Shown here: positions 2,317-35,831 of the stretch, piece after piece
Layout: every line of letters starts with the position of its first letter
How positions within the stretch are numbered: position 1 is the first letter of the stretch
From: a virus
Direction: 5' to 3' (one strand)
DNA length: 42,903 nucleotides
IMG/VR virus record: IMGVR_UViG_3300045988_034633
The notes under the pieces: model-generated
The model's database searches: none
The model's input: the letters and a program-made list of their open reading frames with translations, nothing else
What the model was told of the DNA's origin: nothing
Position numbers and translations under genes: made by a program

Positions 2317-3144
2317 ATGGACAAAACATTTGACGAAGCCATTGCCGGCGTTCGCAAGGCAGAGCGCGGCGTGGAAGTCCGCGAGGACATCGCGCAGGGG
2401 ATGGAGTACGTCAAGCAGTACGCCGAGGAAGTGACAGGCCAGCAGCAGGCCGCTTTGCAGGCCGCTCAGACCGCCACCGGAGCAGCCAGCACCGCGACGG
2501 AAAAGGCCGCAGCAGCTGCAGAGAGCGAAAGAATGTCCAAGACTGCCGCCGCCAACGCGGGCAAAAGCGCACAGTCAGCGTCCGCAGACGCAAAGAGCGC
2601 GGGAAGTTCTGCCGCTTCTGCTGAAGAAAGCGCGAACAGGGCTGCGGCCATTGTGAGCACCGACAAGACGCTGAGCATTGAGGGCGCCCCGGCTGACGCA
2701 AAGGCCACCGGTGACGCGCTGGCCGAAAAAGTGGACAAGGATGTCATCCTCGACTCTGAGGGCAACGTGATTTTCTACAGCAAGAGCAAGGTGGACGCGC
2801 TTCTGAAGGCAATGCAAACCACGCTGCAGCAGCAGATCAGCGCGGCATCCGCGATCACCGCCAGCGGTAACGGTTATATCCGTTTCTCGGACGGCACGCA
2901 GATTTGCTGGAATACAGCGAAGCTGACCAACCGGAACACCTACCATGTTTTCGCGTTCCCCGTGCCGTTTGTCGATACTACTTATGCGGTTGCTGGCATG
3001 AAAACTGCATCAATCAGTGACACGAGTTCCAATGACTTTTACGTTAACAAAAAAACAACGGATAGAGTGGAAATCAAAGGTGCTTACAACCAATACAACA
3101 ATGACCCGTATAGTACCTTGATCGTAATCGGCCGCTGGAAATAA
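2317..3144 (+). CDS. Tail fibre / receptor-binding protein with a gp53-like C-terminal tip
   Basis: RBS aaaggggtga. The N-half is Ala/Ser-rich and helical. It carries an ADAKATGDA fibre motif and a C-terminal GNGYIRFSDGTQICW...FAFPVPF tip-like domain. Confidence 0.6.
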   Translation: MDKTFDEAIAGVRKAERGVEVREDIAQGMEYVKQYAEEVTGQQQAALQAAQTATGAASTATEKAAAAAESERMSKTAAANAGKSAQSASADAKSAGSSAASAEESANRAAAIVSTDKTLSIEGAPADAKATGDALAEKVDKDVILDSEGNVIFYSKSKVDALLKAMQTTLQQQISAASAITASGNGYIRFSDGTQICWNTAKLTNRNTYHVFAFPVPFVDTTYAVAGMKTASISDTSSNDFYVNKKTTDRVEIKGAYNQYNNDPYSTLIVIGRWK

Positions 3145-3156
3145 GGAGGTGCCTAC

Positions 3157-3513
3157 ATGGATATTACACTCGGGTATACCATTGCAAAGCCCGTTATGAC
3201 GCAGGACGAGTGCGACGCCTACACCGCCATGGCGCAGGCCGTGACAGCCCACAATGCCGCCTGCGTGGTGGGTGACGCCCTGTGGACGATCAAGGACGGC
3301 GCAGACTGTTACACCGTGGTCGAGGACGGCACAGTGCGTGAGCCGACTGCCGAAGAGCTGGCCGTGCAGGAGGAAGAGCACAAAAAGGCCGAAGCCCGGA
3401 AGAAGTTGCCGGAAACGGTGGCGGCGCTGCAGGAAGATAGCAAGACGCTGAAAAAAGAAAACGAGATGCTCAAACAATGCTTGCTTGAAATGAGCGAGAT
3501 TGTGTATGCATAA
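3157..3513 (+). CDS. Hypothetical protein (C-terminal coiled coil)
   Basis: Strong RBS aaggaggtg. Compact spacing within the tail/lysis operon. Confidence 0.55.
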   Translation: MDITLGYTIAKPVMTQDECDAYTAMAQAVTAHNAACVVGDALWTIKDGADCYTVVEDGTVREPTAEELAVQEEEHKKAEARKKLPETVAALQEDSKTLKKENEMLKQCLLEMSEIVYA

Positions 3514-12016: not shown

Positions 12017-13222
12017 TCAGTCTTCCTCGTTTTCACGTTCCTCAAAAAGGCTTTCAGCTTTTTTCATCTCATCGGTGAGGAATTTCTGACGGTGGGCAAC
12101 GTAATATCTTGCAGTGGTGGAAAAATTTGTGTGTCCCATAATCTTTTTTGTTGCAGTAGGCGCCACATTTGCTTCAACGAGAAGGGTAGTTGCAGTGCGG
12201 CGCAAGGCGTGGGGGGTAATGCGGTCTCTAATCGGAGTGTCGGCTTGGTTTATTCCAAGATCAAGCATCAGCTTACGGAAAGAATGCTCAACATTGTTTT
12301 TGTCCTTTTTGTTTCCGCTTTCAGTGGGAAGAAGATATTTTTCTCCGATGCTCAACAACATCCATTCTGCAAGAATATTCTTGATCGGGTTTAAGATAGG
12401 AATAAAGCGTCCCTTTCCAGCAGCAGTCTTTTCGCCACCGGTCAGATTGCCGTTTTCTAAATCAACATTATCTCTAGGCAAAGAAAGAAGCTCGTCAATT
12501 CTCATTCCGGTGTATAAAAGAACCATTGCGATCTGCGCCGTTAAGTGCATTCCGTTTCTAGGATCGTCTGCAACGGCTCGGATTTTAGCTGTCTCTTCCG
12601 GCGTAAGGATCCTTTCCTTTGGGCCGGGCGCTGGCGGCAGCTCTAACCCATCAGCATAGTTTTGGTTGATAATATCTTGCTTCATGGCATATATGCATAG
12701 CTGCCGAAATAAACCTTTTTGCTTTTCGCATAGGCTTCGGGATTTTCCGTCTGCGGAAAGTTCATCAATAACTTTTTGATAATCTTCCGTTTTAAGAGTG
12801 CGCACTTCGACGTTCCAAAGTTTTTCAGCTTTGCTGTAAGCTCTTACATACCCGTCTTTTGTATCTTCACCGATGCTACTAAAGTGCGTAGCGCTCCATC
12901 TTTTGTAGATCTCCGCAAAAGTGGATTTTAAGCGCTCTGCCGGCGTCCTCTGAGCATTGTAAGTATCCAGGGCCTGAATGGCTTCTCCGGGAGATGCATA
13001 GTGCCCAAGAACTGTTTTGCCTCCATCCTCCGATGGAACAACGGCAACGTACGGTCTGCTTCTATTTCCGTCAGCCTTTTTATATACGCTGCCGCTGCCC
13101 TTTGGGCGGCGGCGCTTTTTTCTTTGCTGCGGGGCGGCTTCCGGCTGCTTCTTCCCGCACCACGGACAAAAAGAAGCACCATCCGGGATCTCTTTCCGGC
13201 AGCATGGTCTCACGCATTTCAT
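12017..13222 (-). CDS. int: Tyrosine integrase with an N-terminal zinc-ribbon
   Basis: CxxC...CPWCG N-terminus. C-terminal HALRRTA...GHTNFSTTARYY catalytic motifs. Confidence 0.9.
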   Translation of the reverse strand: MKCVRPCCRKEIPDGASFCPWCGKKQPEAAPQQRKKRRRPKGSGSVYKKADGNRSRPYVAVVPSEDGGKTVLGHYASPGEAIQALDTYNAQRTPAERLKSTFAEIYKRWSATHFSSIGEDTKDGYVRAYSKAEKLWNVEVRTLKTEDYQKVIDELSADGKSRSLCEKQKGLFRQLCIYAMKQDIINQNYADGLELPPAPGPKERILTPEETAKIRAVADDPRNGMHLTAQIAMVLLYTGMRIDELLSLPRDNVDLENGNLTGGEKTAAGKGRFIPILNPIKNILAEWMLLSIGEKYLLPTESGNKKDKNNVEHSFRKLMLDLGINQADTPIRDRITPHALRRTATTLLVEANVAPTATKKIMGHTNFSTTARYYVAHRQKFLTDEMKKAESLFEERENEED

Positions 13223-14412: not shown

Positions 14413-15129
14413 TTACAGGCCAAGCAGCTGAGATTTCTTTGTGTTGTACTCCGCTTCCGTGATGGCCCCCATATCCAGTAGCTGCTTAAACTTCAAAAGC
14501 TCATCGGCGGCGCTGGGGGCAGCCGGAGCGGCAGCCTGTGGCTTCTCCTGGCTGACTTTGCAGTTCTTGAGAAAATCGGTCATACCGCCTGGATAAACCG
14601 TTGTCGGCAAGTTGCTTTCGCCTAGTGGAAGCGCAAAGTGGATAGACACGCTCTCTTTACTGCGACCCTTGCGGGTCTCTGTTTTAGCGGTGGCAGCGCC
14701 CACGATCGCACCCACAGGCCCGGCAACGGCTGCACCGATCACGGCACGGCCAATACCACCCTTTGTCTCTGTCACCGTCAGATCGTCAGGCGCGTCAGAT
14801 TCATAACCGGCGACTTCATCAAAGCTGTAGATCATGCGAGGGCCTTTATCACCACTGCGGTGTCCAATGCAAAACAGCCGGTTGGGTTTGTCAATCGACA
14901 CAAAGAGTGCGTCACCATCATAGATGGAATCGGTTTCTTTGAACGCCTTCCGATGCTGTTCCAGTGTAGCCCAGTAGTCCGCAAGGGCAGCTGTCGGTTG
15001 CTTTGCTGCTCGGATGCCCAATTTTGAAAAGAAAAAGTTGCTGCAGCTGGCGCAAATCAAGCCGTCCGCGCTTTTCTCACGGTTCAGAAGACCCAGCTTG
15101 CCGCCGCAGACAGGGCAGGCATTTGCCAT
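14413..15129 (-). CDS. Zinc-ribbon / glycine-zipper / SHOCT-domain protein
   Basis: MANACPVCGGK...CASC N-terminus, GGIGRAVIGAAVAGPVGAIVGAATA segment, and C-terminal LLKFKQLLDMGAITEAEYNTKKSQLL (SHOCT-like). Confidence 0.65.
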   Translation of the reverse strand: MANACPVCGGKLGLLNREKSADGLICASCSNFFFSKLGIRAAKQPTAALADYWATLEQHRKAFKETDSIYDGDALFVSIDKPNRLFCIGHRSGDKGPRMIYSFDEVAGYESDAPDDLTVTETKGGIGRAVIGAAVAGPVGAIVGAATAKTETRKGRSKESVSIHFALPLGESNLPTTVYPGGMTDFLKNCKVSQEKPQAAAPAAPSAADELLKFKQLLDMGAITEAEYNTKKSQLLGL

Positions 15130-15218
15130 AATAAGCACCTCACATATACAAAAATAGGCAGCCAACCAGCTGCCGAAAAGCTAAATTATCAAGGAAAATG
15201 TCAAAGGAGGAAAATAAA

Positions 15219-15684: not shown

Positions 15685-16040
15685 GATACAAAAAGCGTCA
15701 ATACCGTACTCACGACAGCAGAGAGCACCGCAATGACAACACTCTGAGCAAATTGTTTGCGGCTGATTCTCTGCTGTCTTTGCTTTTCGATAAAATAAAG
15801 AACGCCCTTTTGAGTAAGAGAAATAGAAAAATTCTCAAAAATGCCATTTTCTGTAAAATCATATACCGTTATCAAGCCATCCGCCCACAAAGAGTCAATC
15901 AAAGACTTTGGATTTTTTATGCCATTTTTAATAAAAATGCTAGGCGTAAAATAATCGTCATCTTCATGGGTTTCGTAATAGTCACAAATTATTTTCATGC
16001 CTTTATGAATCTGGGCTTCGCTAACCATTCCCGTCACCAT
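15648..16040 (-). CDS. Hypothetical protein with a C-terminal TM segment, co-oriented with the repressor (low GC)
   Basis: Overlaps the repressor stop. C-terminal SVVIAVLSAVVSTVLTLFV. Confidence 0.55.
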   Translation of the reverse strand: MVTGMVSEAQIHKGMKIICDYYETHEDDDYFTPSIFIKNGIKNPKSLIDSLWADGLITVYDFTENGIFENFSISLTQKGVLYFIEKQRQQRISRKQFAQSVVIAVLSAVVSTVLTLFVSQRSEGSETSSV

Positions 16041-16383
16041 CCGGCATATTCAAAACGGCATCAATCGTAGTGTTCAGCATATCCCAAAATGCCGCCTGCT
16101 GCTCAGGCGAAAGCTTTTTCATCTTATTAAGAGTGGCCTGCGCCTTTGCATCCAGCCCATCACCCTCCGGGGTGCTGGGCTTTTCTTTTTGCTCGCTTTC
16201 GCCTGTGAGCTCCTCAGACGGAACATTAAAAAATGTGGCAATTTTTTCAATCGTCGCTTTTCTTGGCACTGATCCATTGCTCCATCTGGTAACGACAGAG
16301 CGCTGAAAGCCCATTTCTTCCGCAACGGCTGACGGAGATTTCCCAATCTTGTTACAAAGGCGCACAAAGTTCAAGTAAAACAA
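16021..16383 (-). CDS. XRE-family repressor (CI-like), TTG start
   Basis: RBS ggaggtg 5-7 nt before the TTG at 16383. NFVRLCNKIGKSPSAVAEEMGFQRSVVTRWSNG HTH. Faces an operator-rich region. Confidence 0.7.
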   Translation of the reverse strand: MFYLNFVRLCNKIGKSPSAVAEEMGFQRSVVTRWSNGSVPRKATIEKIATFFNVPSEELTGESEQKEKPSTPEGDGLDAKAQATLNKMKKLSPEQQAAFWDMLNTTIDAVLNMPDGDGNG

Positions 16384-16420
16384 AATGACACCTCCGTTTT
16401 TGTGCAAACACACAAAAGTG

Positions 16421-16533
16421 AACAAACGTAACAAAATGCCTTGACTGTTGCGTTTGTTTGCGCTATACTGTGCTTGTTGGATGTAAACAAACGCAACACA
16501 AGAGACACCCAAAACAATAGGCGTTTGCTTGTT
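16421..16533. promoter_or_regulatory. Operator array, AACAAACG(C/T)AAC-type half sites
   Basis: Sites at 16421-16432, 16447-16459 (inverted), 16485-16497 and 16521-16533 (degenerate, inverted). The 13-bp arms gttgcgtttgttt / aaacaaacgcaac are perfect. Confidence 0.6.
16441..16469 (+). promoter_or_regulatory. Rightward promoter TTGACT-17-TATACT
   Basis: Read directly. An operator arm occupies the spacer. Confidence 0.6.
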
Positions 16534-16557
16534 AGCTATTAAGTACTTCGCACCTAC

Positions 16558-16586
16558 ATAATAGCACGTTTTGTGAACATTTGCAA
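16558..16586 (-). promoter_or_regulatory. Leftward promoter TTGCAA-17-TATTAT
   Basis: Read on the reverse complement (ttgcaa 16581-16586, tattat = revcomp of 16558-16563). Points toward the repressor gene. Confidence 0.5.
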
Positions 16587-16818
16587 CAAGTATTTTTGAC
16601 ACGGTGACAAGAAAAAGCCCGCCTGCGGTTGTTTCACAGACGGACTTTTCACCGATTTGTAACCAGAACGCACTTGCTCGTGTCTGGAACTGGCTGGCTC
16701 AAAAGTTGGGTCAATGAAATCACCTTCCTTTTGAATCAGTTTAACTAGGAGCCTTGAACAGTATAGCAAATCGGTGCGCCGTTGTCAATTTATTAACCAA
16801 AAAAAGGGAGGTGGAAGA

Positions 16819-17022
16819 GTGCCTGAACCATGGACCGGAAGACTGATTGGCCGAATGCACAACAACGAAGTCACGCTGGACCAGCTTGCAGAACGTCTGG
16901 GATGGACGAAGAGCTATTGCTCGATGATCCTGAACAGCAAGCGCAAGCCGCGCGGCATCCGTGAAAAGATGGAAACTGCCGTCAGCGAGATCATCAAGGA
17001 AAAGGAGGACAAAACGGCATGA
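16819..17022 (+). CDS. Cro-like small HTH protein (GTG start)
   Basis: RBS gggaggtgg. VTLDQLAERLGWTKSYCSMILNSKRKP. Confidence 0.55.
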   Translation: MPEPWTGRLIGRMHNNEVTLDQLAERLGWTKSYCSMILNSKRKPRGIREKMETAVSEIIKEKEDKTA

Positions 17023-17822
17023 GCGAATTAAACAATCTCATCCCCATTAGCTACGATAACCCGGAGCGCCCCACTGTGAGCGGCCGGGAGCTGCACGAGT
17101 TTCTTGGTGTCAAATCCAGATATAATGACTGGTTTAACAACATGACTGCCTACGGATTTGCCGAAAATGTCGATTATGTGTCGCTTACTAAAAATTTAGT
17201 AAACGGTGGACGCAGCACCGACCACCAGCTGACCATCCCAATGGCCAAAGAGCTGTGCATGATCCAGCGCAACGAGCGTGGCAAGCAGGCCCGGCAGTAT
17301 TTCTTGGCCGTGGAGGCGCAGTGGAACAGCCCGGAAGCGGTCATGCGCCGTGCGGTGCTCATTGCAGACTGCAAAGTGAAAGAGCTGCAAAGCGTGAACC
17401 GCAGCCTGCTGGCCGAGAACAGCGACCTGAAGCCGGATGCAGAGTATGCCCGGGCGGTGTGCGTGGGCAAGAACTGCCGCACCACTACCAGCCTTGCCAA
17501 GGATTACGGCCTGAGCGCCGAGAAACTCAACAGCATCCTTCACGGCCTGAAGATCCAGTACAAGACCAGCGACGGGCAGTGGGTGTTATACGCAAAGTAT
17601 AGCGGCAAAGGTTACACCAAAAACCGCAAATCCACGCCGTTCCAGCACAAGAGCACCGGCGAGTGGGACACCAAGAACACCACCGTATGGACGGAAGCGG
17701 GCCAGCGGTTCATTTATGAGCAGCTCAAGGCCGTGGGAATGCTGCCCAGCGTGGAGCGCAAGCAGAGTGTGGAGCAGATGGAGCTTGCCGCCCGCCGGCA
17801 CAACCAGGACGGGGTGGCGTAA
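17019..17822 (+). CDS. ant: Antirepressor (AntA-like N-domain + KilAC/ANT C-domain)
   Basis: SGRELHEFLGVKSRYNDWF...QLTIPMAKELCMIQRNERGKQARQYF and a C-terminal KilAC-like segment. Confidence 0.8.
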   Translation: MSELNNLIPISYDNPERPTVSGRELHEFLGVKSRYNDWFNNMTAYGFAENVDYVSLTKNLVNGGRSTDHQLTIPMAKELCMIQRNERGKQARQYFLAVEAQWNSPEAVMRRAVLIADCKVKELQSVNRSLLAENSDLKPDAEYARAVCVGKNCRTTTSLAKDYGLSAEKLNSILHGLKIQYKTSDGQWVLYAKYSGKGYTKNRKSTPFQHKSTGEWDTKNTTVWTEAGQRFIYEQLKAVGMLPSVERKQSVEQMELAARRHNQDGVA

Positions 17823-17852
17823 GAACACAAACTTATTTTGGAGGTTACTATT

Positions 17853-18485
17853 ATGAAAAAGCTGCATGTGAAAGCTACGTTTATTGAGCCGGTGCTTGGC
17901 ACATGGCCCGCAAACTCCAATGTGGCCCGCGATTTCATCGCCAGCAAGTCGCCGGATGCTGCAACCATCGAGGATGAAGTGGCGGCTCTTGGCCCTGATG
18001 CGGTAGCCGACAAGGGCATGACCGTTTTCCCGCGTGACCCGGACGGCAATCCGATCTTTTACGATTACCAGATCAAAGGCATGTTTAAGGATGCTTGCGG
18101 TATGCTTTCCCGCATCGGCGGCAAGACCGAGACCGGCAAGAAGAAGGCCTTGAACGAAAGCGGCAAGCTGACTGCTTACAAGAAGGTCATTGACGGCCTG
18201 ATCTTTGTCCAGCCCCGCATGATTTCCATTCATGTGAACGGCGAGATTACCGACTGCCAGCGTCCGCTGCGTGCCCAGACCGCACAGGGAGAGCGCGTGA
18301 GCCTTGTGAACTCAGAGGAGATCCCTGCTGGCAGCACCTGCGAGTTTGACGTAACCCTCCTTGACGACAGCCACGAAAAGGTTGTGCGTGAGTGGCTGGA
18401 TTATGGCATTCTGCGCGGCATCGGCCAGTGGCGCAACAGCGGAAAGGGCCGCTTTACTTACATCGCCTATGAGGTGAAAGCCTGA
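17853..18485 (+). CDS. Cas7/RAMP-like protein (tentative), otherwise hypothetical
   Basis: RBS ggaggt. PIFYDYQIKGMFKDACGML, GLIFVQPRMIS and C-terminal RGIGQWRNSGKGRF (G-h-G-x5-G-x-G) resemble Csm3/Cmr4-type RAMP motifs. Confidence 0.35.
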   Translation: MKKLHVKATFIEPVLGTWPANSNVARDFIASKSPDAATIEDEVAALGPDAVADKGMTVFPRDPDGNPIFYDYQIKGMFKDACGMLSRIGGKTETGKKKALNESGKLTAYKKVIDGLIFVQPRMISIHVNGEITDCQRPLRAQTAQGERVSLVNSEEIPAGSTCEFDVTLLDDSHEKVVREWLDYGILRGIGQWRNSGKGRFTYIAYEVKA

Positions 18486-19030
18486 GAGCAAGGGCATGGC
18501 ATTGACGGCCCTGATTCGCGGAGGCGATGCGCGGCTTGGCAATGGCAAGGCTGAGTTCGATTGGCCGTGCGATGGCGGTGCAGCTCGAGGCGTGGCAAAG
18601 GAATTGAGTGGCAAGGCGTGGTTTGGCGAAGCAAGGCGCAGAATTGCGACGGAAAAGCTCTGCATTGAGTTGCAAAGGCAGAGCAAGGCGAAGAAATGCC
18701 CCGCAACGGCAAAGCTTGGCATTGACATGCTTAGCAACGGCAAAGCACAGTGAAAAATAGCATAGAAACGTTCGGAGCAGTGTACAGCAAAGGCAAAGGC
18801 TATGAGGTGAACTGCTGTGCAGTGGCACTGAGAAGCACAGACAGGCAAGGCAAAGGCGGAGCAGAGCATGGCGGTGCGAAGGAATGGCAGAGAAAAGCGC
18901 TGATGTGATTTGCGAAGGAAAAGTGGTGCACCGTAACGATTCGCTGCGGCAAGGTTTTGCTTCGGATGCATTGGCATGGCAGCGCGACACACTGCGACGG
19001 CAAAGCAAAGAGAAGGCGTTTTATTAAACA
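18486..19030 (+). repeat. Purine-rich degenerate repeat region (GCAA[AG]G array); coding status unclear
   Basis: I count 16 GCAA[AG]G hexamers. For example, 46 of 60 nt are purines in 18841-18900. ORFs are open in several frames on both strands. Confidence 0.6.
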
Positions 19031-19054
19031 TTTTATTAAAAGGAGTGAACGAGC

Positions 19055-19297
19055 ATGAAAAAAGTTATTGTTGGCGTAGCGTCCGTATTGGCAAGCGCTT
19101 TGCTGATGGCCGGATGCAATAAGCAGGTCATCGACCTGACCTATGAATACAGCTGGGCACAGCTGAAAATGCCCGACGGAACGATTGTCGAGGGGAAATT
19201 GAACAGTTGGGACGATTACGAGGGCGACCAGCTGCAAGTGAAGATTGACGGCGTGACATATCTGGTTCATTCGTCCAATGTTGTGCTGCGACATTGA
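19055..19297 (+). CDS. Small lipoprotein
   Basis: RBS aaaggag. Signal peptide with lipobox LLMAGC. Confidence 0.7.
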   Translation: MKKVIVGVASVLASALLMAGCNKQVIDLTYEYSWAQLKMPDGTIVEGKLNSWDDYEGDQLQVKIDGVTYLVHSSNVVLRH

Positions 19298-19317
19298 TAG
19301 AAAGGAGGACACCACCC

Positions 19318-20295
19318 ATGAGTGAAAAGATCATCGCCTACAAGGCCATGGACAAAAATATGCAGTGCCGTGGCAAGCAGTATGAGGTGGGCAAGACATA
19401 CACAGAGCCGGAGGCAGACTGCTGCCACGCTGGTATGCATGCCTGCGAGAACCCACTGGACGTGCTGCGCTACTACCCGCTGAAGGATAGCTCGCGCTTT
19501 TTTGAGGTCGAGTGCGGCGGGAACGTGGATAAAAGCGAAAATGGCAGTAAACTTGCCTGCACTGAGCTGACGGTGAAAGGCGAGGTGAATTTTGCAGGGC
19601 TGGTAAAAGCTACAGTGGTGAATGCCGTTTTTAATCGGGTGAAGGGCAAAGAACCTTTTTCCGGCGGCGATTACAGCACGGCGGGGTCCAGCGGCAATTC
19701 CAGCACGGCGGGTTCCAGCGGCGATTACAGCACGGCGGGGTCCAGCGGCGATTCCAGCACCGCGGGTTCCAGCGGCGATTCCAGCACCGCGGGTTCCAGC
19801 GGCGATTCCAGCACCGCGGGTTCCAGCGGCGATTCCAGCACGGCGGGTTCCAGCGGCGATTACAGCACCGCGGGGTCCAGCGGCTATTCCAGCACCGCGG
19901 GTTCCAGCGGCGATTACAGCACGGCGGGGTCCAGCGGCGATTCCAGCACCGCGGGTTCCAGCGGCGATTACAGCACGGCGGGTTCCAGCGGCGATTCCAG
20001 CACCGCGGGTTCCAGCGGCGATTACAGCACGGCGGGGTCCAGCGGCGATTCCAGCACCGCGGCAGCCACTGGGGCTTATTGCAACGCAAAAGCAGACGGA
20101 AAAGATAGCATTGCCGTTGTAAACGGTGCTTGCGGTAAGGCGCGCGGCGCACTGGGCTGCTATCTTGTGCTGACCGAGTACGACGATGACGGCCGCATGA
20201 TCTGTGCCAAAATGGCCCGCGTGGATGGTTCTGCCATCAGAGAAAGCGTTTACTATACCCTCAAAAATGGCGAGTTTGTGGAGGCCGAGCCATGA
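19318..20295 (+). CDS. Repeat protein: conserved N-domain + 15 x 9-aa SGD(Y/S)STAGS repeats + C-domain
   Basis: RBS aaggagga. The N-domain YKAMDKNMQCRGKQYEVGKTY...CHAGMHACENPLDVLRYY is of a type I recall as DUF7666-like (unverified). Confidence 0.6.
   Translation: MSEKIIAYKAMDKNMQCRGKQYEVGKTYTEPEADCCHAGMHACENPLDVLRYYPLKDSSRFFEVECGGNVDKSENGSKLACTELTVKGEVNFAGLVKATVVNAVFNRVKGKEPFSGGDYSTAGSSGNSSTAGSSGDYSTAGSSGDSSTAGSSGDSSTAGSSGDSSTAGSSGDSSTAGSSGDYSTAGSSGYSSTAGSSGDYSTAGSSGDSSTAGSSGDYSTAGSSGDSSTAGSSGDYSTAGSSGDSSTAAATGAYCNAKADGKDSIAVVNGACGKARGALGCYLVLTEYDDDGRMICAKMARVDGSAIRESVYYTLKNGEFVEAEP
19666..20063 (+). repeat. 27-bp tandem repeat, 14 full units plus a partial unit (in-frame, coding)
   Basis: ggcgattacagcacggcggggtccagc units with few substitutions. 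Confidence 0.9.
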
Positions 20296-22094: not shown

Positions 22095-22794
22095 GACCAA
22101 AAACGAAAAGACTCCCGTTGAAATGCTTCAGAATCCCGCTCCTGCAGCAGAAACGATTGCCGCTGCTCCCGCTGCTCCCGCTGCTCCCACTGCGGCGCTG
22201 GCACAGCGCCCGCAGAGTTACGCGGAAAAGGTGCAGGGCTTGACCGCCGATGAGCGAATCTGGCAGCTCGCGAAGTCCAAGGCAGTCGCGATGGCGAACC
22301 TGCCGGACGGGATGCTCCCGCAGACATACGCCGGGAACATTGGCGCTTGCGCTATTGCCTGTGACATGGCCCAGCGCATGGGCGTATCGTATCTGTTCGT
22401 TATGCAGAATTTGTATGTCGTTTATGGCCAGCCCACATGGAGCGGCAAGAGCTGCAAGGCGCTGATCGACAACAGCGGCGAGTTTGCCGGGCGCACCCGC
22501 TACCGCATGGAAGGACAGGAAGGAACGGATAGCTGGGGCTGCCGTCTGATCGGTGTAGACAAGCTCACCGGTGAAAAGGTCGAAGGCCCAAAAGTCACTG
22601 TCAAGATGGCGAAAGACGCCGGGTGGTGGAGCAAGAATGGCAGCTACTGGCCCAAGATGACCGAAATGATGCTCAAGTACCGCGCCGCCGCCTATTTTGC
22701 CCGCGCCGAGTGCCCGGAAGTGCTGATGGGCGCAAACATCGACTATGAATCCGGCACAGGTGATAGTGCTGAGGAAGAGGCGCGGCATGCTTAA
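22087..22794 (+). CDS. recT: RecT-family single-strand annealing protein
   Basis: RBS gaggagga. ...MGVSYLFVMQNLYVVYGQPTWSGKSCKALIDNSG...WPKMTEMMLKYRAAAYFAR pattern. Confidence 0.7.
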   Translation: MPETKNEKTPVEMLQNPAPAAETIAAAPAAPAAPTAALAQRPQSYAEKVQGLTADERIWQLAKSKAVAMANLPDGMLPQTYAGNIGACAIACDMAQRMGVSYLFVMQNLYVVYGQPTWSGKSCKALIDNSGEFAGRTRYRMEGQEGTDSWGCRLIGVDKLTGEKVEGPKVTVKMAKDAGWWSKNGSYWPKMTEMMLKYRAAAYFARAECPEVLMGANIDYESGTGDSAEEEARHA

Positions 22795-23266
22795 CGTTGT
22801 AGCGATCATGGGCCGGTTGGTTGCCGACCCGGAACTCAAGACCACCCAGCAGGGCACCAGCGTCTGCCGCTTCCGCATTGCCTGTGACCGCAACTTTTCC
22901 CGGCAGGGCGAGCAGCGGCAGGCAGACTTTATCGATATCGTGGCATGGCGTGCACAGGCCGAGTTTGTGTGCAAGTATTTCCAGAAGGGCAGCCTGATTG
23001 CCATTGAAGGCAACCTGCAGACCCGTCAGTATCAGGACAAGAACGGCAGCAACCGCACCGCCGTGGAGGTCGTGACCAGCAATGTGAGCTTTGCGGGCTC
23101 CAAGACGGCAGACAAGCCTGCCACGGCGTCCTACGAGCAACAGACGGCAAATCATGTGCGGGAAGCAAACGCCGCGCACAGTGCCCTGCCGGCGGCTCCC
23201 TCGTATGAGCAGGGAAATATGGACGACTTTGCCACGATCCCGGACGATGGAGATCTCCCCTTCTGA
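22787..23266 (+). CDS. ssb: Single-stranded DNA-binding protein
   Basis: OB-fold pattern MLNVVAIMGRLVADPELK...ADFIDIVAWR and an acidic tail DDGDLPF. Confidence 0.9.
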   Translation: MLNVVAIMGRLVADPELKTTQQGTSVCRFRIACDRNFSRQGEQRQADFIDIVAWRAQAEFVCKYFQKGSLIAIEGNLQTRQYQDKNGSNRTAVEVVTSNVSFAGSKTADKPATASYEQQTANHVREANAAHSALPAAPSYEQGNMDDFATIPDDGDLPF

Positions 23267-23322: not shown

Positions 23323-24114
23323 TTGAAAGAGGAAGAACAGAAAAGCATAGTCATTTACAAATCATGGAAAAAGCCGTTGCGGAAATTGTCTCTGGAGCAA
23401 AAAGGCAGGATTTTTGACGCGCTGCTTGATTTCCCCGATATGCCGAATTTTGAGGACGACCAGAAGCTCGAAATGGCGTGGGATTTTATGTCCGAGGCGG
23501 TGGAATCAAATTCTAAAAAATGGAACGAAAGACGAGAAAAGAGAGCTGCTGCAGGGCGTAAAGGCGCAGAAGTTACAAACGGCAAGCGTCAGCAAAACGC
23601 GGCAAATCCGGCAAATGCCGACTTTGACGAGCAAAAACAGCAAAACGCGGCAAATCCAGCTGTAAATGGTAATGGTAATGTAAATGGTAATGGTAATGTA
23701 AATGGTAATGGTAATGTAAATGGTAATGGTATATCACCTAACGGTGGTGTATATAATAGCGCCGCCGCCGTTGACGTAGAACTTTCCAAGATCGTCCAAC
23801 ATTATCAGCAGGCCGTTGGGGACTTCCCGCGCTCTGCACTGGACAAGCTGCAGAAGTGGAGGCAGGAGTACAGCACAGAGATGATCTTGCTGGCGATTGA
23901 CAAATCCACAGAAGCCGGAAAGCGCTCGTGGAGTTACATCAACGGCATATTGTCCGGGTGGAAGCGGGACGGACTGCGCACGCCGGGGGACGTGGAAGCC
24001 AACGAACAAAGCCGACAAGCCAGGCCGCGAGGCAAGCAGCCAACCGAGACCGTAGACGACCAGCTTGCCCGGGTGCTGGCGAAGATGGACAGAGAAAGAG
24101 GGTTTGAGACATGA
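23323..24114 (+). CDS. Replisome organizer / DnaD-domain replication initiator (TTG start)
   Basis: RBS gaaggaggtg. The C-terminal ...RSWSYINGILSGWKRDGLRTPGDV is DnaD-like. The central linker is low complexity. Confidence 0.7.
   Translation: MKEEEQKSIVIYKSWKKPLRKLSLEQKGRIFDALLDFPDMPNFEDDQKLEMAWDFMSEAVESNSKKWNERREKRAAAGRKGAEVTNGKRQQNAANPANADFDEQKQQNAANPAVNGNGNVNGNGNVNGNGNVNGNGISPNGGVYNSAAAVDVELSKIVQHYQQAVGDFPRSALDKLQKWRQEYSTEMILLAIDKSTEAGKRSWSYINGILSGWKRDGLRTPGDVEANEQSRQARPRGKQPTETVDDQLARVLAKMDRERGFET
23590..23730 (+). repeat. Iteron-like repeats inside the initiator gene
   Basis: 20-bp direct repeat cagcaaaacgcggcaaatcc at 23590-23609 and 23638-23657, followed by the 18-bp unit gtaaatggtaatggtaat x about 3.8 (23662-23730). 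Confidence 0.85.
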
Positions 24115-25822: not shown

Positions 25823-26311
25823 ATGAAGCCGAAAACGAAATCTGAGCTGATGGCCGAATGGGCCAGCCAGCCCGACCAGCTCAAAAGAGAGCGGGAGGTC
25901 AAGGCTGTCCGCAAGGCGATGGACGACGCCCGCGCCGCGATGCAGGACGGCCTGACCCGGTACGTCAAGAAAAAGACCAAAGCCCGCAGCATGGCAAAGG
26001 CTGAAGCTGACCCCTTTGCTGAGCTGGAAGGCTGGGAAAGCATGGAGCAAATCCAGGATGCCTACGGCTATGGCGAGATCACCGCCGACAAGCGGGACAA
26101 ACTCACCGACCTGTGGGAAGCCCGGGAAGCTGCCAGGAGCAGCCGCAAGGGCGTGGACAAGTACCACGACCTTGTGACGGAGATGCTGGAAACGGCCATC
26201 CGCCGGGTGGGCAATGAGTACGCAGATATGCTGTTTGAGTATGACCAGCAGCGCAGGGAAGCAGAAAAGCAGTGCGAGCAGCTGGCAATGGAAGGGATGA
26301 TGAAGAAATGA
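25823..26311 (+). CDS. Hypothetical helical protein
   Basis: RBS gggggtga then the ATG at 25823. Confidence 0.5.
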   Translation: MKPKTKSELMAEWASQPDQLKREREVKAVRKAMDDARAAMQDGLTRYVKKKTKARSMAKAEADPFAELEGWESMEQIQDAYGYGEITADKRDKLTDLWEAREAARSSRKGVDKYHDLVTEMLETAIRRVGNEYADMLFEYDQQRREAEKQCEQLAMEGMMKK

Positions 26312-26886
26312 GCAGTTCCGTAGAATATGCAAAGTCCGAACTAGCCCGCATCTCAAAAGATGGAGACGGGATGCAAGACACAATCAACAAGAACATCATT
26401 GACATTGTTGAGCTTTTCGCAAGTCAAGGACATAGCGGATTTACCGCTGGATATGCGCTGTCTATCCTGGAGCGACTTTTGCGTTTCAAGCCGATTACTC
26501 CGCTTACTGGCGAAGATGATGAATGGACTAATATGTCGGACGAAATGGGGCAAAGATGTTTCCAAAATAAACGATGCTCAAGTGTGTTCAAGACCACTGA
26601 TGCACAAGGCAACACGATTGAGGTACACGACATTGACGCAATCGCTTATTCCGACAACGGTGGCCTTACATGGTTTACAAGTAGCCGCTTTCGCCAAAAC
26701 GTGACGTTCCCCTATGAGCCACCTACGCACCCGGAAAAAATCTATATCGAATACACGGAAGATGTTCCGCTTGGCTGGTCTAGCGACAAGTATGAGATTA
26801 TCACTGACGACAAGGAACGTATTAAAGCGTTGAGAACCAAGATGCAGAAGAAGCTTGATAAAGCTGAGGAGTCATCATGCACCTGA
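26308..26886 (+). CDS. Hypothetical protein (lower GC)
   Basis: ATGA overlap. 192 aa. Confidence 0.5.
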   Translation: MSSSVEYAKSELARISKDGDGMQDTINKNIIDIVELFASQGHSGFTAGYALSILERLLRFKPITPLTGEDDEWTNMSDEMGQRCFQNKRCSSVFKTTDAQGNTIEVHDIDAIAYSDNGGLTWFTSSRFRQNVTFPYEPPTHPEKIYIEYTEDVPLGWSSDKYEIITDDKERIKALRTKMQKKLDKAEESSCT

Positions 26887-28476: not shown

Positions 28477-28549
28477 ACTCCGGTAGCTCAAGTGGTAGAG
28501 CAGCGGTCTCCAAAACCGCATGTTGCAGGTTCGAGTCCTGCCGGGAGTG
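28477..28549 (+). tRNA. trnW: tRNA-Trp (anticodon CCA)
   Basis: Hand-folded cloverleaf with A1-U72, G73, anticodon arm gcggt-CTCCAAA-accgc and T-arm gcagg-ttcgagt-cctgc. There is one G6-G67 mismatch. Confidence 0.8.
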
Positions 28550-28671
28550 CTTGCGTGCCCTATGAGGGGGCCGCGCAATAGCGGGGCATCCGGCCGCGAA
28601 AGTTCCGGATGCAGCAGCGCCCACCGTTTGACGCCTGTCCAACAAACTGAATGCACGGGCGCTGCTTATAT

Positions 28672-28807
28672 GCCGTCATAGCTCAATTGGAAGAGCGCCG
28701 CCCATTTAAGGCGGGACAACGTTGGTGACACCACGGGAACATCACTGCACAGCCAACCACTGCGCACATCCATTCCATGGGTGCTGGTTCAAACCCAGCT
28801 GGCGGCA
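28672..28807 (+). ncRNA. tRNA-shaped element with a ~68-nt insertion between the anticodon stem and T arm; anticodon loop CATTTAA
   Basis: Acceptor gccgtca/tggcggc (7 bp), canonical D arm, ccgcc/ggcgg anticodon stem, and T-arm gctgg-ttcaaac-ccagc. Total length 136 nt. Confidence 0.4.
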
Positions 28808-35680: not shown

Positions 35681-35753
35681 GCCGCTTTTGCACAACTGGC
35701 AGTGCTCCTGGCTCATAACCGGGGAGTTGCAGGTTCGACCCCTGCAAGCGGCA
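35681..35753 (+). tRNA. tRNA with CAT anticodon (Met elongator, or Ile2 type)
   Basis: Perfect 7-bp acceptor gccgctt/aagcggc, D arm gcac/gtgc, anticodon arm cctgg-CTCATAA-ccggg, and T arm gcagg-ttcgacc-cctgc. Confidence 0.85.
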
Positions 35754-35831
35754 CCGCACCGGCAGCACGTCCGGCAAATAAACCTTATTGCCAAGCATGG
35801 CAGCCCGAGCAAGGGCAGAAAGGACTATCAC

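What the first reader, a model, noticed from the sequence alone, without database searches (positions are those of the whole stretch)
17853..18485. Stand-alone Cas7/RAMP-like protein in the early operon
The 210-aa protein shows three motifs in the order seen in Csm3/Cmr4-type Cas7 proteins:
- PIFYDYQIKGMFKDACGML (compare IPGSSLKGxxR);
- GLIFVQPRMIS followed by ...RPLRAQTAQGERVSLVNSEEIPAGSTCEFDVTLL;
- a C-terminal RGIGQWRNSGKGRF that matches the RAMP glycine-rich loop G-h-G-x5-G-x-G.
No other cas genes and no CRISPR array are present. A lone RNA-binding RAMP in a phage early region, directly upstream of a repeat-rich non-coding-looking stretch, could be an RNA-guided or RNA-sequestering module, or an anti-CRISPR-type decoy. 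This assignment is from memory of motif patterns only.
Basis: inference. Interest (0 to 1): 0.65.

Follow-up and report, generated by a model that had tools for sequence, protein, structure and literature searches.

The report
Phage Cas7-like protein plus repeat tract
An early gene of a gut phage encodes a lone, very diverged relative of the CRISPR backbone protein Cas7, and in phages of many bacterial groups this gene sits next to a same-strand, non-coding tract of 5-6-base GCAAAG-type repeats, which points to an undescribed CRISPR-independent protein-RNA module.

Summary
The ORF is real: 17853-18485, 210 aa, with a GGAGG ribosome-binding site. The RAMP reading holds. Pfam, PHROGs, NCBIfam and PADLOC find nothing. 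A family profile, however, hits the 200-aa type VII CRISPR Cas7 (E=2e-5) and Csm4 through the glycine-rich loop. A confident AlphaFold model (pLDDT 90.5) hits only Cas7-family chains in the PDB (top 50, E~1e-8).

The family is very large (1,687 clusters at 50% identity) and lies in prophage early regions. It has no cas genes, no CRISPR arrays and no conserved protein neighbour.

The new result concerns the repeat-rich stretch 18486-19054. It is non-coding, has a 5.2-nt period and carries 16 co-oriented GCAARG motifs. Similar tracts flank the gene in most divergent loci: in 52 of the 54 loci with a dense tract it lies next to the gene (12.3 expected, P=3e-33). The tract is always on the gene's strand, on either side of it.

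Two relatives are tandem Cas7-like fusions. Their model superposes on gRAMP/Cas7-11.

Best reading (inferred, about 0.5): the protein polymerises on its own co-transcribed repeat RNA to form a crRNA-independent Cas7-type filament. Its role is unknown; early counter-defence or host takeover is my guess. Binding has not been shown.

The parts
17840..17844 (+). Ribosome-binding site GGAGG, 8 nt before the ATG of the Cas7-like gene
   Evidence: Read directly from the sequence.
17853..18485 (+). Cas7-like (RAMP superfamily) protein gene, 210 aa. It is the third gene of the early rightward operon, after the cro-like HTH gene and ant.
   Evidence: Translation. Profile hit to type VII Cas7 and Csm4. 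AlphaFold model pLDDT 90.5. Foldseek top 50 all Cas7-family. Family of 1,687 clusters at 50% identity.
18066..18089 (+). Codons for Y72-K79 (YQIKGMFK), the start of helix alpha1. This is the counterpart of the Cas7 'S/L-KG-xx-R/K' motif.
   Evidence: G76 and K79 are invariant and Y72 is 92% conserved in 62 diverse members. Helix 71-85 in the model.
18249..18323 (+). Codons for residues 133-157, a long beta-hairpin (Cas7 'thumb' position) carrying RPLRAQTAQGERVSLVNSE, the most conserved block of the family.
   Evidence: Strands 133-143 and 146-157 in the model. R137 and S154 invariant; R140, G146, R148 and E155 at 95% or more.
18417..18455 (+). Codons for G189-F201 (GIGQWRNSGKGRF), the RAMP glycine-rich loop before the last beta-strand.
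   Evidence: HMM alignment to the loops of type VII Cas7 and Csm4. Conservation.
18486..19054 (+). Non-coding repeat tract: about 110 degenerate 5-6-nt units (GCNNN / GCAAAG), 16 exact GCAARG motifs (first at 18488, last at 19005) and none of the reverse complement. It is purine-rich (A .29, G .34, C .19, T .17). It lies inside the early operon, between the Cas7-like stop codon and the next gene.
   Evidence: k-mer counts. Spectral peak at 5.13-5.22 nt (11.9x the mean) and no 3-nt coding signal. No terminator between gene and tract. No Rfam family. Folding z=-0.11. Equivalent tracts occur next to homologues.
17019..17822 (+). Context: Ant anti-repressor (AntA + KilAC), immediately upstream in the same operon.
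   Evidence: Pfam 3e-25 and 2e-23; PHROG 63.
16774..17022 (+). Context: cro-like HTH gene, first gene of the early rightward operon. The divergent CI-like repressor is at 16021-16602 (-).
   Evidence: Pfam HTH_3. Divergent promoter-like sites at 16558-16788.
19055..19297 (+). Context: next gene after the tract, an 80-aa protein with a lipoprotein-like N-terminus and its own AGGAG ribosome-binding site. It is not conserved next to homologues.
   Evidence: Sequence. No Pfam hit. Neighbours vary between loci.

Best explanation
The finding is one half of a two-part phage module.

Part 1 is a small, very diverged Cas7-type RAMP protein that probably has no RNase activity. Part 2 is a 300-600-nt untranslated tract of degenerate 5-6-nt repeats (GCAAAG/GCAAGG among GCNNN units). 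The tract lies on the same strand, directly beside the gene, and is transcribed with it early in infection.

Proposed mechanism (inferred, not shown): the protein nucleates on the GCAARG units and polymerises head-to-tail along the tract, one subunit per 5-6 nt. It would use the glycine-rich loop (QWRN), the N-terminus of helix alpha1 (KGxxK) and the conserved thumb hairpin (RPLRA..QGER), as Cas7 subunits do on crRNA. The product would be a crRNA-independent, Cas5/Cas10-independent Cas7-type ribonucleoprotein filament that acts in trans.

Its biological role is not established. My best guess is early counter-defence or host takeover, for example a decoy or sequestering particle, or shielding of early RNA. 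This guess rests on three things: the module sits among variable accessory genes of early operons, the same operon encodes a Thoeris inhibitor, and in at least one locus the gene plus tract form a self-contained transcription unit.
For: SHOWN
1. Cas7 fold. The family profile hits type VII Cas7 at E=2.1e-5 and Csm4 at E=0.0027. The model has pLDDT 90.5. The 50 best PDB matches are all Cas7-family.
2. Gene-tract linkage.
- In 80 genomic loci sharing 46-83% protein identity, 54 have a window of 400 nt with at least 6 GCAARG motifs. In 52 of these it lies within 700 nt of the gene (12.3 expected, P=3e-33).
- The flanks hold 628 forward motifs and 59 reverse-complement motifs.
- Most of the 'exception' loci inspected carry variant purine-rich tracts.
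- 63 of 79 close viral loci have the tract.
- In the reverse test, 37 of 119 viral stretches chosen only by the DNA pattern carry the gene, always adjacent and co-oriented. Twelve dense-tract stretches without the gene were inspected. Most were unrelated coding low-complexity repeats, largely Ala-Lys. Several other dense tracts lay at locus ends.
3. The tract lies downstream in 20 of those viral loci and upstream in 17, yet it is never inverted. This points to a constraint at the transcript level.
4. The tract is non-coding with a period of 5.2 nt. It is structure-neutral: z=-0.11 in the window and a median of -0.10 over 41 tracts. No terminator separates it from the gene.
5. Oligomerisation hint. 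Natural tandem fusions of two Cas7-like domains exist. The model of one (pTM 0.78) matches gRAMP/Cas7-11 and type III-D multi-Cas7 fusions over 500-575 columns, with TMq 0.42-0.47 against about 0.28 for single-Cas7 hits. Both fusion loci also have a tract. In L290 the gene, the tract and a terminator form a closed unit followed by a convergent gene.
6. Setting. The gene lies in the early operon after cro and ant, and Tad3 lies in the same operon.

INFERRED: binding of the protein to the tract, the stoichiometry, trans action and the biological role.
Against: - No experiment or computation here shows binding.
- The period is about 5.2 nt, not the 6 nt of every solved Cas7-crRNA backbone.
- Canonical Cas7 subunits bind RNA without sequence specificity and need Cas5 to nucleate.
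- In the window the tract is an internal intergenic segment, so a cis role cannot be excluded.
- Of the 80 genomic loci, 54 reach the exact-motif density threshold, and one AT-rich locus (L162) shows no obvious tract.
- Co-variation between repeat unit and protein residues could not be tested, because the genome scan selected on the QWRNS loop.
- Linkage could partly reflect common descent of a module rather than function, although rapid tract turnover among relatives of 94% identity or more and the relocations argue against pure inertia.
Confidence: 0.5

Rival explanations
1. Anti-CRISPR by subunit mimicry. The lone Cas7 homologue inserts into, or titrates components of, the host's type III (or type I/IV) effector and yields a defective complex, as shown for viral Cas homologues in Listeria. 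The repeat tract would be irrelevant or an RNA decoy of the Racr type.
For: Orphan viral cas genes are common and some are proven Acrs that assemble into defective complexes (bioRxiv 10.1101/2023.06.24.545427, read). The protein has a Cas7 fold. It is expressed early, and the same operon carries a Thoeris inhibitor.
Against: Identity to any solved Cas7 is only 8-16%, and no Cas model in PADLOC or Pfam detects the protein. Known Cas-derived Acrs, by contrast, keep recognisable similarity to the host protein they mimic. The family is conserved in phages of hosts from several phyla, whose CRISPR types differ. It keeps its own conserved RNA-like partner. No acr or aca genes were recognised among the neighbours, which were not scanned with Acr/Aca models.
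Confidence: 0.15
2. Cis-acting RNA switch of the TRAP or HutP kind. The oligomeric protein binds the 5-6-nt repeats in the nascent early transcript and thereby controls its own translation (upstream tracts) or the read-through, stability or polarity of downstream early genes (downstream tracts).
For: The tract lies inside the operon with no terminator before it. It lies in the 5' leader of the gene in 17 of 37 viral loci. From established knowledge, TRAP reads 11 (G/U)AG triplets spaced 2-3 nt apart, which gives the same 5-6-nt periodicity. A G-rich, C-poor tract would resist Rho loading on 570 nt of untranslated RNA (composition).
Against: Downstream genes differ from locus to locus. In L290 the tract is followed by a strong terminator and a convergent gene, so nothing lies downstream to regulate. 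Tracts of 300-600 nt with about 60-110 units are far longer than a switch needs. Only 3 of 25 tracts are followed by a terminator, which is the background rate.
Confidence: 0.15
3. DNA-level element. The tract is a binding array on single- or double-stranded phage DNA (origin, recombination hot spot or strand-specific loading zone), and the RAMP protein is an ssDNA/DNA-binding accessory of the replication-recombination module.
For: Recurrent genes within 6 kb are SSB (22 of 81 loci), RusA, Erf-like and Gp157-like proteins, and YqaJ or PD-(D/E)XK exonucleases. A period of 5.2 nt equals half a B-DNA turn.
Against: The tract keeps the gene's strand although it has moved from one side of the gene to the other, which a duplex site need not do. 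The window has a better origin candidate, a perfect 18-nt x3.9 iteron inside the DnaB_2 initiator gene. All structural relatives are RNA binders. Adjacency is to the RAMP gene, not to replication genes.
Confidence: 0.1
4. No direct protein-tract interaction. The tract is a sponge for a host RNA-binding factor, or a slippage-prone spacer that hitch-hikes with the gene. The protein acts alone on other RNAs.
For: The tract turns over quickly by indels even among relatives of 94% identity or more. Units are degenerate and differ between lineages. Only partial Shine-Dalgarno-like AAGG/AAAGGA strings are frequent.
Against: Linkage at P=3e-33 across about 50% protein divergence and several host phyla is hard to keep without a functional tie. 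Motif identity (GCAAAG) is conserved across phyla, whereas host factors and their motifs would differ. The non-coding tract was seen only next to this gene.
Confidence: 0.1

Closest known systems
Type VII CRISPR-Cas Cas7 (PDB 8yhd, 8yhe, 8z4j, 9j9e)
   Same: It gives the best sequence-profile hit (E=2.1e-5) and the best structural hits (E=1e-8, TM about 0.55). The size is the same (about 200 aa). It has a single RRM/RAMP core, a glycine-rich loop of the form G-h-G-x-W-x-N-x-G-x-G-R, and is described as catalytically inactive (PMC13069675).
   Different: Type VII Cas7 works with Cas5, the Cas14 nuclease and crRNA from a CRISPR array. Here there is no Cas5 or Cas14, no array and no conserved protein partner. 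Identity is 13-16%. There is an extra helical insertion at residues 24-54. The partner nucleic acid is a 5-6-nt micro-repeat, not a spacer-bearing crRNA.
Csm3 / Cmr4 (type III Cas7 backbone RNases)
   Same: Same fold and topology, about 200-290 aa. The motif order is KG-xx-K/R helix start, thumb hairpin, then glycine-rich loop.
   Different: No invariant Asp/Glu occurs in the beta1-alpha1 loop, where Csm3 and Cmr4 carry their catalytic Asp (the position is inferred from knowledge of Csm3). There are no cas10/csm/cmr neighbours. The N-terminal half alone has no detectable sequence similarity.
gRAMP / Cas7-11 (type III-E) and type III-D multi-Cas7 fusions
   Same: Two family members are natural fusions of two Cas7-like domains. 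The model of one superposes over both domains on these proteins.
   Different: There are two domains rather than four or five. No Cas11 insertion, no CRISPR array and no TPR-CHAT partner are present.
Orphan viral cas genes acting as anti-CRISPRs (AcrIB3, AcrIB4, AcrVIA2; Katz et al., bioRxiv 10.1101/2023.06.24.545427)
   Same: A Cas-derived gene stands alone in a phage, without an array or operon. It is expressed from an early or accessory region, and an anti-defence gene lies nearby.
   Different: Those genes keep recognisable sequence similarity to a specific host Cas protein and need no RNA of their own. This family is missed by Cas HMMs, spans many host phyla and carries its own repeat tract.
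Array-less derived class 1 modules (type IV-B; haloarchaeal HRAMP)
   Same: Cas7-family proteins that work without a CRISPR array (PMC8730458).
   Different: Those modules keep Cas5 plus further conserved genes (Csf1/Cas11/CysH-like, or nucleases). They are cellular or plasmid-borne. No dedicated micro-repeat tract is described for them.
TRAP (trp RNA-binding attenuation protein) and type III toxin-antitoxin pairs such as ToxIN. These are functional analogues only, cited from established knowledge.
   Same: TRAP is an oligomer that reads many short repeats spaced 5-6 nt apart on single-stranded RNA. ToxIN is a protein gene next to a tandem-repeat RNA that it binds.
   Different: The folds are unrelated (TRAP is a beta-sandwich ring; ToxN has a Kid/MazF-like fold). 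ToxI repeats are 36 nt long and lie upstream behind a terminator. TRAP sites number 11, not about 100.

Membership tests
RAMP superfamily / Cas7 family (fold level) | RRM (ferredoxin-like) core beta1-alpha1-beta2-beta3-alpha2-beta4 | tested here: met
   The model (pLDDT 90.5) has the elements in this order. 192 PDB matches have E<=1e-3, and the top 50 are all Cas7-family chains aligned over 218-264 columns, with one at 349.
RAMP superfamily / Cas7 family (fold level) | Glycine-rich loop between alpha2 and the last beta-strand | tested here: met
   GIGQWRNSGKGRF (residues 189-201) aligns to the loops of type VII Cas7 and Csm4 in a profile search (E=2.1e-5 and 0.0027). G189 and G199 are 98-100% conserved.
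RAMP superfamily / Cas7 family (fold level) | Thumb-like beta-hairpin inserted in the core | tested here: met
   A long hairpin (133-143 / 146-157) is present in the model. Equivalence with the Cas7 thumb rests on the Foldseek alignments and was not checked by explicit superposition.
Cas7 backbone (functional) | Head-to-tail oligomerisation along RNA | tested here: inconclusive
   The only evidence is indirect: tandem two-domain relatives whose model matches gRAMP and type III-D fusions over both domains. No multimer or RNA-complex prediction was available.
Type III Csm3/Cmr4 | Catalytic Asp in the beta1-alpha1 loop | tested here: inconclusive
   No invariant acidic residue lies just before T57-x-F59-x-R61. 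The conserved acidic positions lie elsewhere (E42, D114, E155, E180). A sequence alignment of the N-terminal half to solved Csm3/Cmr4 failed.
Type III / type VII CRISPR-Cas system | Neighbouring cas10/csm/cmr, or cas5 + cas14 | tested here: not met
   No recurrent neighbour other than phage early genes in 81 loci. No Cas Pfam domains in the called genes of 9 contigs.
CRISPR-Cas system (any type) | CRISPR array (repeats of 23-50 nt with unique spacers) | tested here: not met
   TRF on the window. A repeat-spacer scan of the window and 289 loci finds only coding 27-nt repeats. The tract has 5-6-nt units and no spacers.
Cas-derived anti-CRISPR (viral cas gene) | Inhibits a CRISPR-Cas system; usually shows recognisable similarity to the host Cas subunit it mimics; often sits in an acr/aca or anti-defence cluster | not testable with these tools
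   Inhibition cannot be tested here. Similarity to any Cas7 is 8-16%. No Acr or Aca was recognised nearby; neighbours were not scanned with Acr/Aca models. Tad3 lies 7.8 kb downstream in the same operon.
Type III toxin-antitoxin (ToxIN-like) | Endoribonuclease toxin of Kid/MazF-like fold, preceded by an array of ~36-nt repeats and a terminator | tested here: not met
   The fold is RAMP. Units are 5-6 nt. The tract lies on either side of the gene with no terminator between them.
Described RNA families (Rfam 15) | Match of the tract to a curated covariance model | tested here: not met
   The window gives only tRNAs at gathering score. Region 17700-19400 at E<=1 gives only a spurious miRNA hit.

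The most novel reading that the evidence does not exclude
The gene and the tract together form an autonomous, CRISPR-independent ribonucleoprotein system of phages. A Cas7-type RAMP reads a 5-6-nt repeat code (GCAAAG among GCNNN units, with a frequent 31-nt super-period of one hexamer plus five pentamers) and builds a filament on a dedicated co-transcribed RNA. This would be a new class of 'repeat-associated' protein-RNA effector, used early in infection by thousands of temperate phages of gut Clostridia and other phyla. It could be either an exaptation of a type III/VII backbone subunit or a relic of a simpler association between RAMPs and repeats.
Probability: 0.4. Interest if true: 0.9.

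Novelty: new variant of a known kind. Interest (0 to 1): 0.8.

Why it matters
Cas7 proteins are known as non-specific backbone subunits that need Cas5, a crRNA and partner nucleases. Here a Cas7-type protein is a lone gene that is extremely common in gut prophages: 1,687 clusters at 50% identity, more than 584 IMG/VR loci, and unnamed by the public sources checked apart from one automatic RAMP label. It is tied to its own micro-repeat tract.

If the two form an RNP, this would:
- show that RAMP-RNA recognition can be sequence-coded and independent of CRISPR;
- add a new kind of phage early effector, either counter-defence or regulatory;
- bear on how RAMPs and repeats became associated;
- offer a compact, self-assembling RNA-coating module.

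The prediction can be tested directly with one protein and one synthetic RNA.

Tried and rejected
1. Single-sequence searches of Pfam, PHROGs, NCBIfam, PADLOC and PDB sequences found nothing. Only a 62-member profile reached Cas7.
2. Scanning all 62 members against Pfam gave only scattered noise.
3. A profile of the N-terminal half alone, meant to align the Csm3/Cmr4 catalytic loop, hit no Cas protein. The catalytic question stays open.
4. The search for a conserved protein partner failed. Clustering ORFs of 81 loci gave only antisense shadows of the gene and generic early genes, and the immediate neighbours are mostly singletons.
5. Domain fusions gave no functional clue beyond the tandem duplication. 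The extras were a Big_2 domain in one protein and K/R-rich tails in two.
6. The tract is not a structured ncRNA. There is no Rfam hit and folding z-scores are near zero.
7. The tract is not a 3' end closed by a terminator. Terminators after tracts are at the background rate.
8. A 6-nt register was tested and rejected. Motif spacings show no enrichment at multiples of 6. The ladder has a period of about 5.2 nt.
9. The tract is not a CRISPR-like array.
10. The tract is not coding. There is no 3-nt periodicity, and the ORFs called in it (for example 18496-18753) are composition artefacts.
11. Ideas considered from memory and set aside as unsupported: CsrA GGA sites, sigma-54 TGGCA boxes, anti-Shine-Dalgarno pairing, pairing with the tRNA-Ala anticodon loop, and Chi-site clusters. 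The motif is conserved across phyla, unlike host-specific signals.
12. Four literature searches found no description of this family or tract. Source names are 'hypothetical protein'. The one exception is an automatic label, 'Cas system-associated RAMP superfamily protein', on a 71%-identical virome protein.
13. The first genome-collection scan with the 62-member alignment failed for lack of a conserved stretch. It was repeated with 8 members. That biases the genomic set towards the QWRNS loop and prevented a co-variation test.
Full report
OBSERVATION

A GGAGG lies 8 nt upstream of the ATG. The ORF listing extends the frame to a TTG at 17838, but homologues begin at the MKK position.

The window is a complete, circularly permuted temperate siphovirus genome:
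- tail genes, 0.5-7 kb;
- integrase, 12017-13222 (-);
- CI-like repressor, 16021-16602 (-);
- an early rightward operon: cro-like HTH 16774-17022, Ant 17019-17822, the target gene, ... SSB 22745-23266, DnaB_2 initiator 23323-24114, Tad3 26272-26886;
- terminase, portal, capsid and tape-measure genes.

The target is therefore the third gene of the early lytic operon.

IS IT A RAMP?

Single-sequence searches were empty in Pfam, PHROGs, NCBIfam, PADLOC and the PDB sequence set.

The protein belongs to a very large, unannotated family. A word-indexed search saturated at about 8,000 hits. An exhaustive HMMER search found 1,687 clusters at 50% identity. Sources call the proteins 'hypothetical'.

G76, K79, R137, S154 and G199 are invariant. 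L15, G16, T57, F59, Y72, D114, R140, G146, R148, E155, E180, G189, Q192, W193 and R194 are 92% conserved or more.

A profile from this alignment hits the 200-aa Cas7 of type VII CRISPR-Cas (E=2.1e-5). It then hits Csm4 (E=0.0027) and, weakly, Cmr4. The alignment runs through the glycine-rich loop: GLGQWRNaGkGRF against GIGGWLNKGYGRVSF and GIGGKRNSGYGKFKF. The PDB codes belong to type VII complexes.

An AlphaFold2 model built on the alignment is confident (pLDDT 90.5, pTM 0.83). It has the RRM order, a helical insertion (residues 24-54), a long hairpin (133-157) and a loop before the last strand.

Foldseek against the PDB gives 192 matches at E<=1e-3. The top 50 are all Cas7-family chains: type VII Cas7, Csm3 of several species, Cas7-11, Csf2 and type III-D, with E from 1e-8 to 6e-6 and TM 0.43-0.60.

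In the viral structure library the nearest protein (71% identical) already carries an automatic label, 'Cas system-associated RAMP superfamily protein'. The fold assignment is therefore solid and not entirely unnoticed. I found no functional description of the family.

WHAT KIND OF CAS7?

No invariant acidic residue sits just before T57-x-F59-x-R61. From my knowledge of Csm3 (GxxD-x-PV-x-RD...P-x-IPGSS-x-KG), that is where the catalytic Asp would lie. An attempt to align the N-terminal half to solved Csm3/Cmr4 by sequence failed. RNase activity is therefore unsupported but not excluded. The closest relative, type VII Cas7, is itself described as inactive.

CONTEXT

The exact protein occurs on 34-43-kb phage contigs with the same layout as the window. 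An 83%-identical relative sits in a different, ~100-kb phage among unrelated small genes.

IMG/VR holds at least 584 loci.

In GTDB genomes, 80 loci sharing 46-83% identity were retrieved. The nearest are Faecalibacterium. Most are Oscillospiraceae or other Clostridia. Some are Coriobacteriia, and a few come from Planctomycetota, Chloroflexota and Acidobacteriota MAGs.

I clustered all ORFs of 81 loci. No protein partner is conserved next to the gene. Recurrent genes within 6 kb are XRE repressors (30 loci), SSB (22), integrase (17), Ant, RusA, Gp157-like, Erf-like, and YqaJ or PD-(D/E)XK exonucleases. This is a phage early module.

No cas gene or CRISPR array was seen anywhere.

THE REPEAT TRACT

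The 569 nt between the stop codon and the next gene (18486-19054) contain 16 GCAARG motifs and none of the reverse complement. The composition is A .29, G .34, C .19, T .17.

The Fourier spectrum has one sharp peak at 5.13-5.22 nt (11.9x the mean) and no 3-nt signal. The flanking coding sequences show the reverse pattern. The GC-to-GC lag ladder scores 170, against 16.7 +/- 5.2 in shuffles.

The stretch is therefore non-coding. It is made of about 110 degenerate 5-6-nt units (GCNNN and GCAAAG).

It matches no Rfam family. It has no selected secondary structure (z=-0.11). No terminator separates it from the gene.

THE TRACT IS CONSERVED WITH THE GENE

Counting GCAARG within 600 nt of the gene in the 80 divergent loci gives 5-22 copies in most of them, against a background of about 1-1.5 per 600 nt.
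- 54 loci have a 400-nt window with at least 6 motifs.
- In 52 of these it lies within 700 nt of the gene (12.3 expected; Poisson-binomial P=3e-33).
- No locus reaches 6 motifs on the other strand.
- The flanks hold 628 forward and 59 reverse-complement motifs.

Tracts from Lachnospiraceae, Pirellulales, Dehalococcoidia and Phycisphaerae MAGs look alike.

Spacings between motifs in 43 tracts form a ladder: 5/6, 10/11, 15/16, 20/21, 26, 31, 36, 41... The mode is 31 nt, that is one hexamer plus five pentamers. The median span is 342 nt.

Most of the 'exception' loci inspected carry variant purine-rich tracts with units such as GGAATAG, GAAACG, GCGACG, GCAATG and GCATAG. One AT-rich locus shows none.

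Among close relatives the tract is present in 63 of 79 viral loci. It turns over quickly by indels.

REVERSE TEST

I scanned IMG/VR with GCAAAGGCAAAG-N-GCAAAG-N-GCAAAG alone. This returned 119 stretches, and 37 carry a family member, always adjacent and always on the tract's strand. I inspected twelve dense-tract stretches without the gene. Most were unrelated coding low-complexity repeats, largely Ala-Lys and partly from giant-virus contigs. Several other dense tracts lay at locus ends.

In the 37 loci the tract is downstream in 20 and upstream in 17. One locus has a dense tract on both sides. The tract is never inverted. Movement from one side of the gene to the other with the strand preserved is what a transcript-level constraint predicts. 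A duplex-DNA site would not require it.

Across 41 tracts the folding z-scores centre on zero (median -0.10). Strict terminators after tracts occur at the background rate, and none lies between gene and tract.

OLIGOMERISATION HINT

Two family members (458 and 432 aa) are tandem fusions of two Cas7-like domains. The AlphaFold model of one has pTM 0.78. Its best PDB matches are no longer single Cas7 subunits. They are natural multi-Cas7 fusions, gRAMP/Cas7-11 and a type III-D subunit. The alignments span 500-575 columns with TMq 0.42-0.47, against about 0.28 for single-domain hits. The two domains thus appear to be placed roughly as consecutive backbone subunits.

Both fusion genes are also followed by a short-repeat tract. 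In L290 the order is: terminator, promoter region, gene, tract, strong terminator, convergent gene. That is a self-contained unit.

INTERPRETATION

Shown:
- the Cas7-type fold;
- stand-alone status;
- placement in the early operon;
- a conserved, co-oriented, non-coding 5-6-nt repeat tract;
- the existence of tandem fusions.

Inferred:
- the protein binds the tract RNA and polymerises on it;
- the particle acts in trans.

I commit to this RNP model at about 0.5. The role (counter-defence or takeover) is a guess. It rests on the accessory, variable neighbourhood, on the Tad3 gene in the same operon and on the closed unit in L290.

Rivals:
- Anti-CRISPR by subunit mimicry, as shown for viral Cas homologues. 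Against it: 8-16% identity to any solved Cas7, the spread across host phyla, and the family's own RNA partner.
- A TRAP-like cis switch. Against it: variable downstream genes, L290, and tract length.
- A DNA-level site. Against it: strand preservation, and a better origin candidate, the 18-nt iteron inside the initiator gene.
- No direct interaction between protein and tract. Against it: the strength and breadth of the linkage.

The main weakness of my model is the period of 5.2 nt, where solved Cas7 backbones use 6 nt. The lack of any binding data is the other.

NOVELTY

Already known:
- the RAMP fold;
- the idea of orphan viral cas genes;
- array-less Cas7 derivatives.

New, as far as these searches can tell:
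- this specific, very abundant family;
- above all its obligatory micro-repeat partner.

I file it as a new variant of a known kind. There is a substantial chance (about 0.4) that the pair is a new type of RNP system.

Noticed in passing
window 26272-26886 (+): A homologue of Tad3, the type I Thoeris inhibitor (PF25185, E=4.6e-36), lies in the same early operon about 7.8 kb downstream of the Cas7-like gene. The phage therefore carries at least one recognised anti-defence gene.
   Followed up: partly
window 23661-23731, inside ORF 23323-24114 (+): A perfect 18-nt x3.9 direct repeat (TGTAAATGGTAATGGTAA) lies between the DUF6291 and DnaB_2 domains of the replication-initiator gene. It looks like origin iterons inside the initiator gene.
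   Followed up: partly
window 19294-20295 (+), repeats 19659-20062: A DUF7666 protein with 15 copies of a 27-nt (9-aa, GDSSTAGSS-like) repeat. Copy number differs between otherwise identical contigs (271 aa in L001 against 333 aa here).
   Followed up: no
window 28672-28807 (+): Rfam's tRNA model matches end to end (47 bits) over 136 nt, but ARAGORN does not call it. It may be an interrupted or intron-bearing tRNA, next to tRNA-Trp (28477-28550). tRNA-Met is at 35681-35755.
   Followed up: no
window 14413-15165 (-): A DUF4428 / PH_gly_zipper / SHOCT protein lies between the integrase and the repressor, in the lysogeny-expressed region. It is a candidate prophage-encoded membrane or exclusion factor.
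   Followed up: no
L092, L104, L123, L128, L141, L153 (GTDB loci): Phage contigs carrying the family are binned into Bacteroides, Prevotella, Muribaculaceae and Alloprevotella MAGs, although their nearest relatives are in Faecalibacterium and Clostridia. This is probably mis-binning of phage contigs.
   Followed up: no
family members P0125, P0127, P0129: Some members carry C-terminal extras: a Big_2 Ig-like domain (P0125) or long Lys/Arg-rich disordered tails (P0127, P0129).
   Followed up: partly
L185 (IMG/VR), gene 2648-3298 (-): One viral locus has dense GCAARG tracts on both sides of the gene (30 and 25 motifs within 700 nt).
   Followed up: no
L289 1440-1470; L290 4308-4338: In both tandem-fusion loci a strong hairpin without a T-run lies between the stop codon and the repeat tract. 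It could be a processing or stability element.
   Followed up: no
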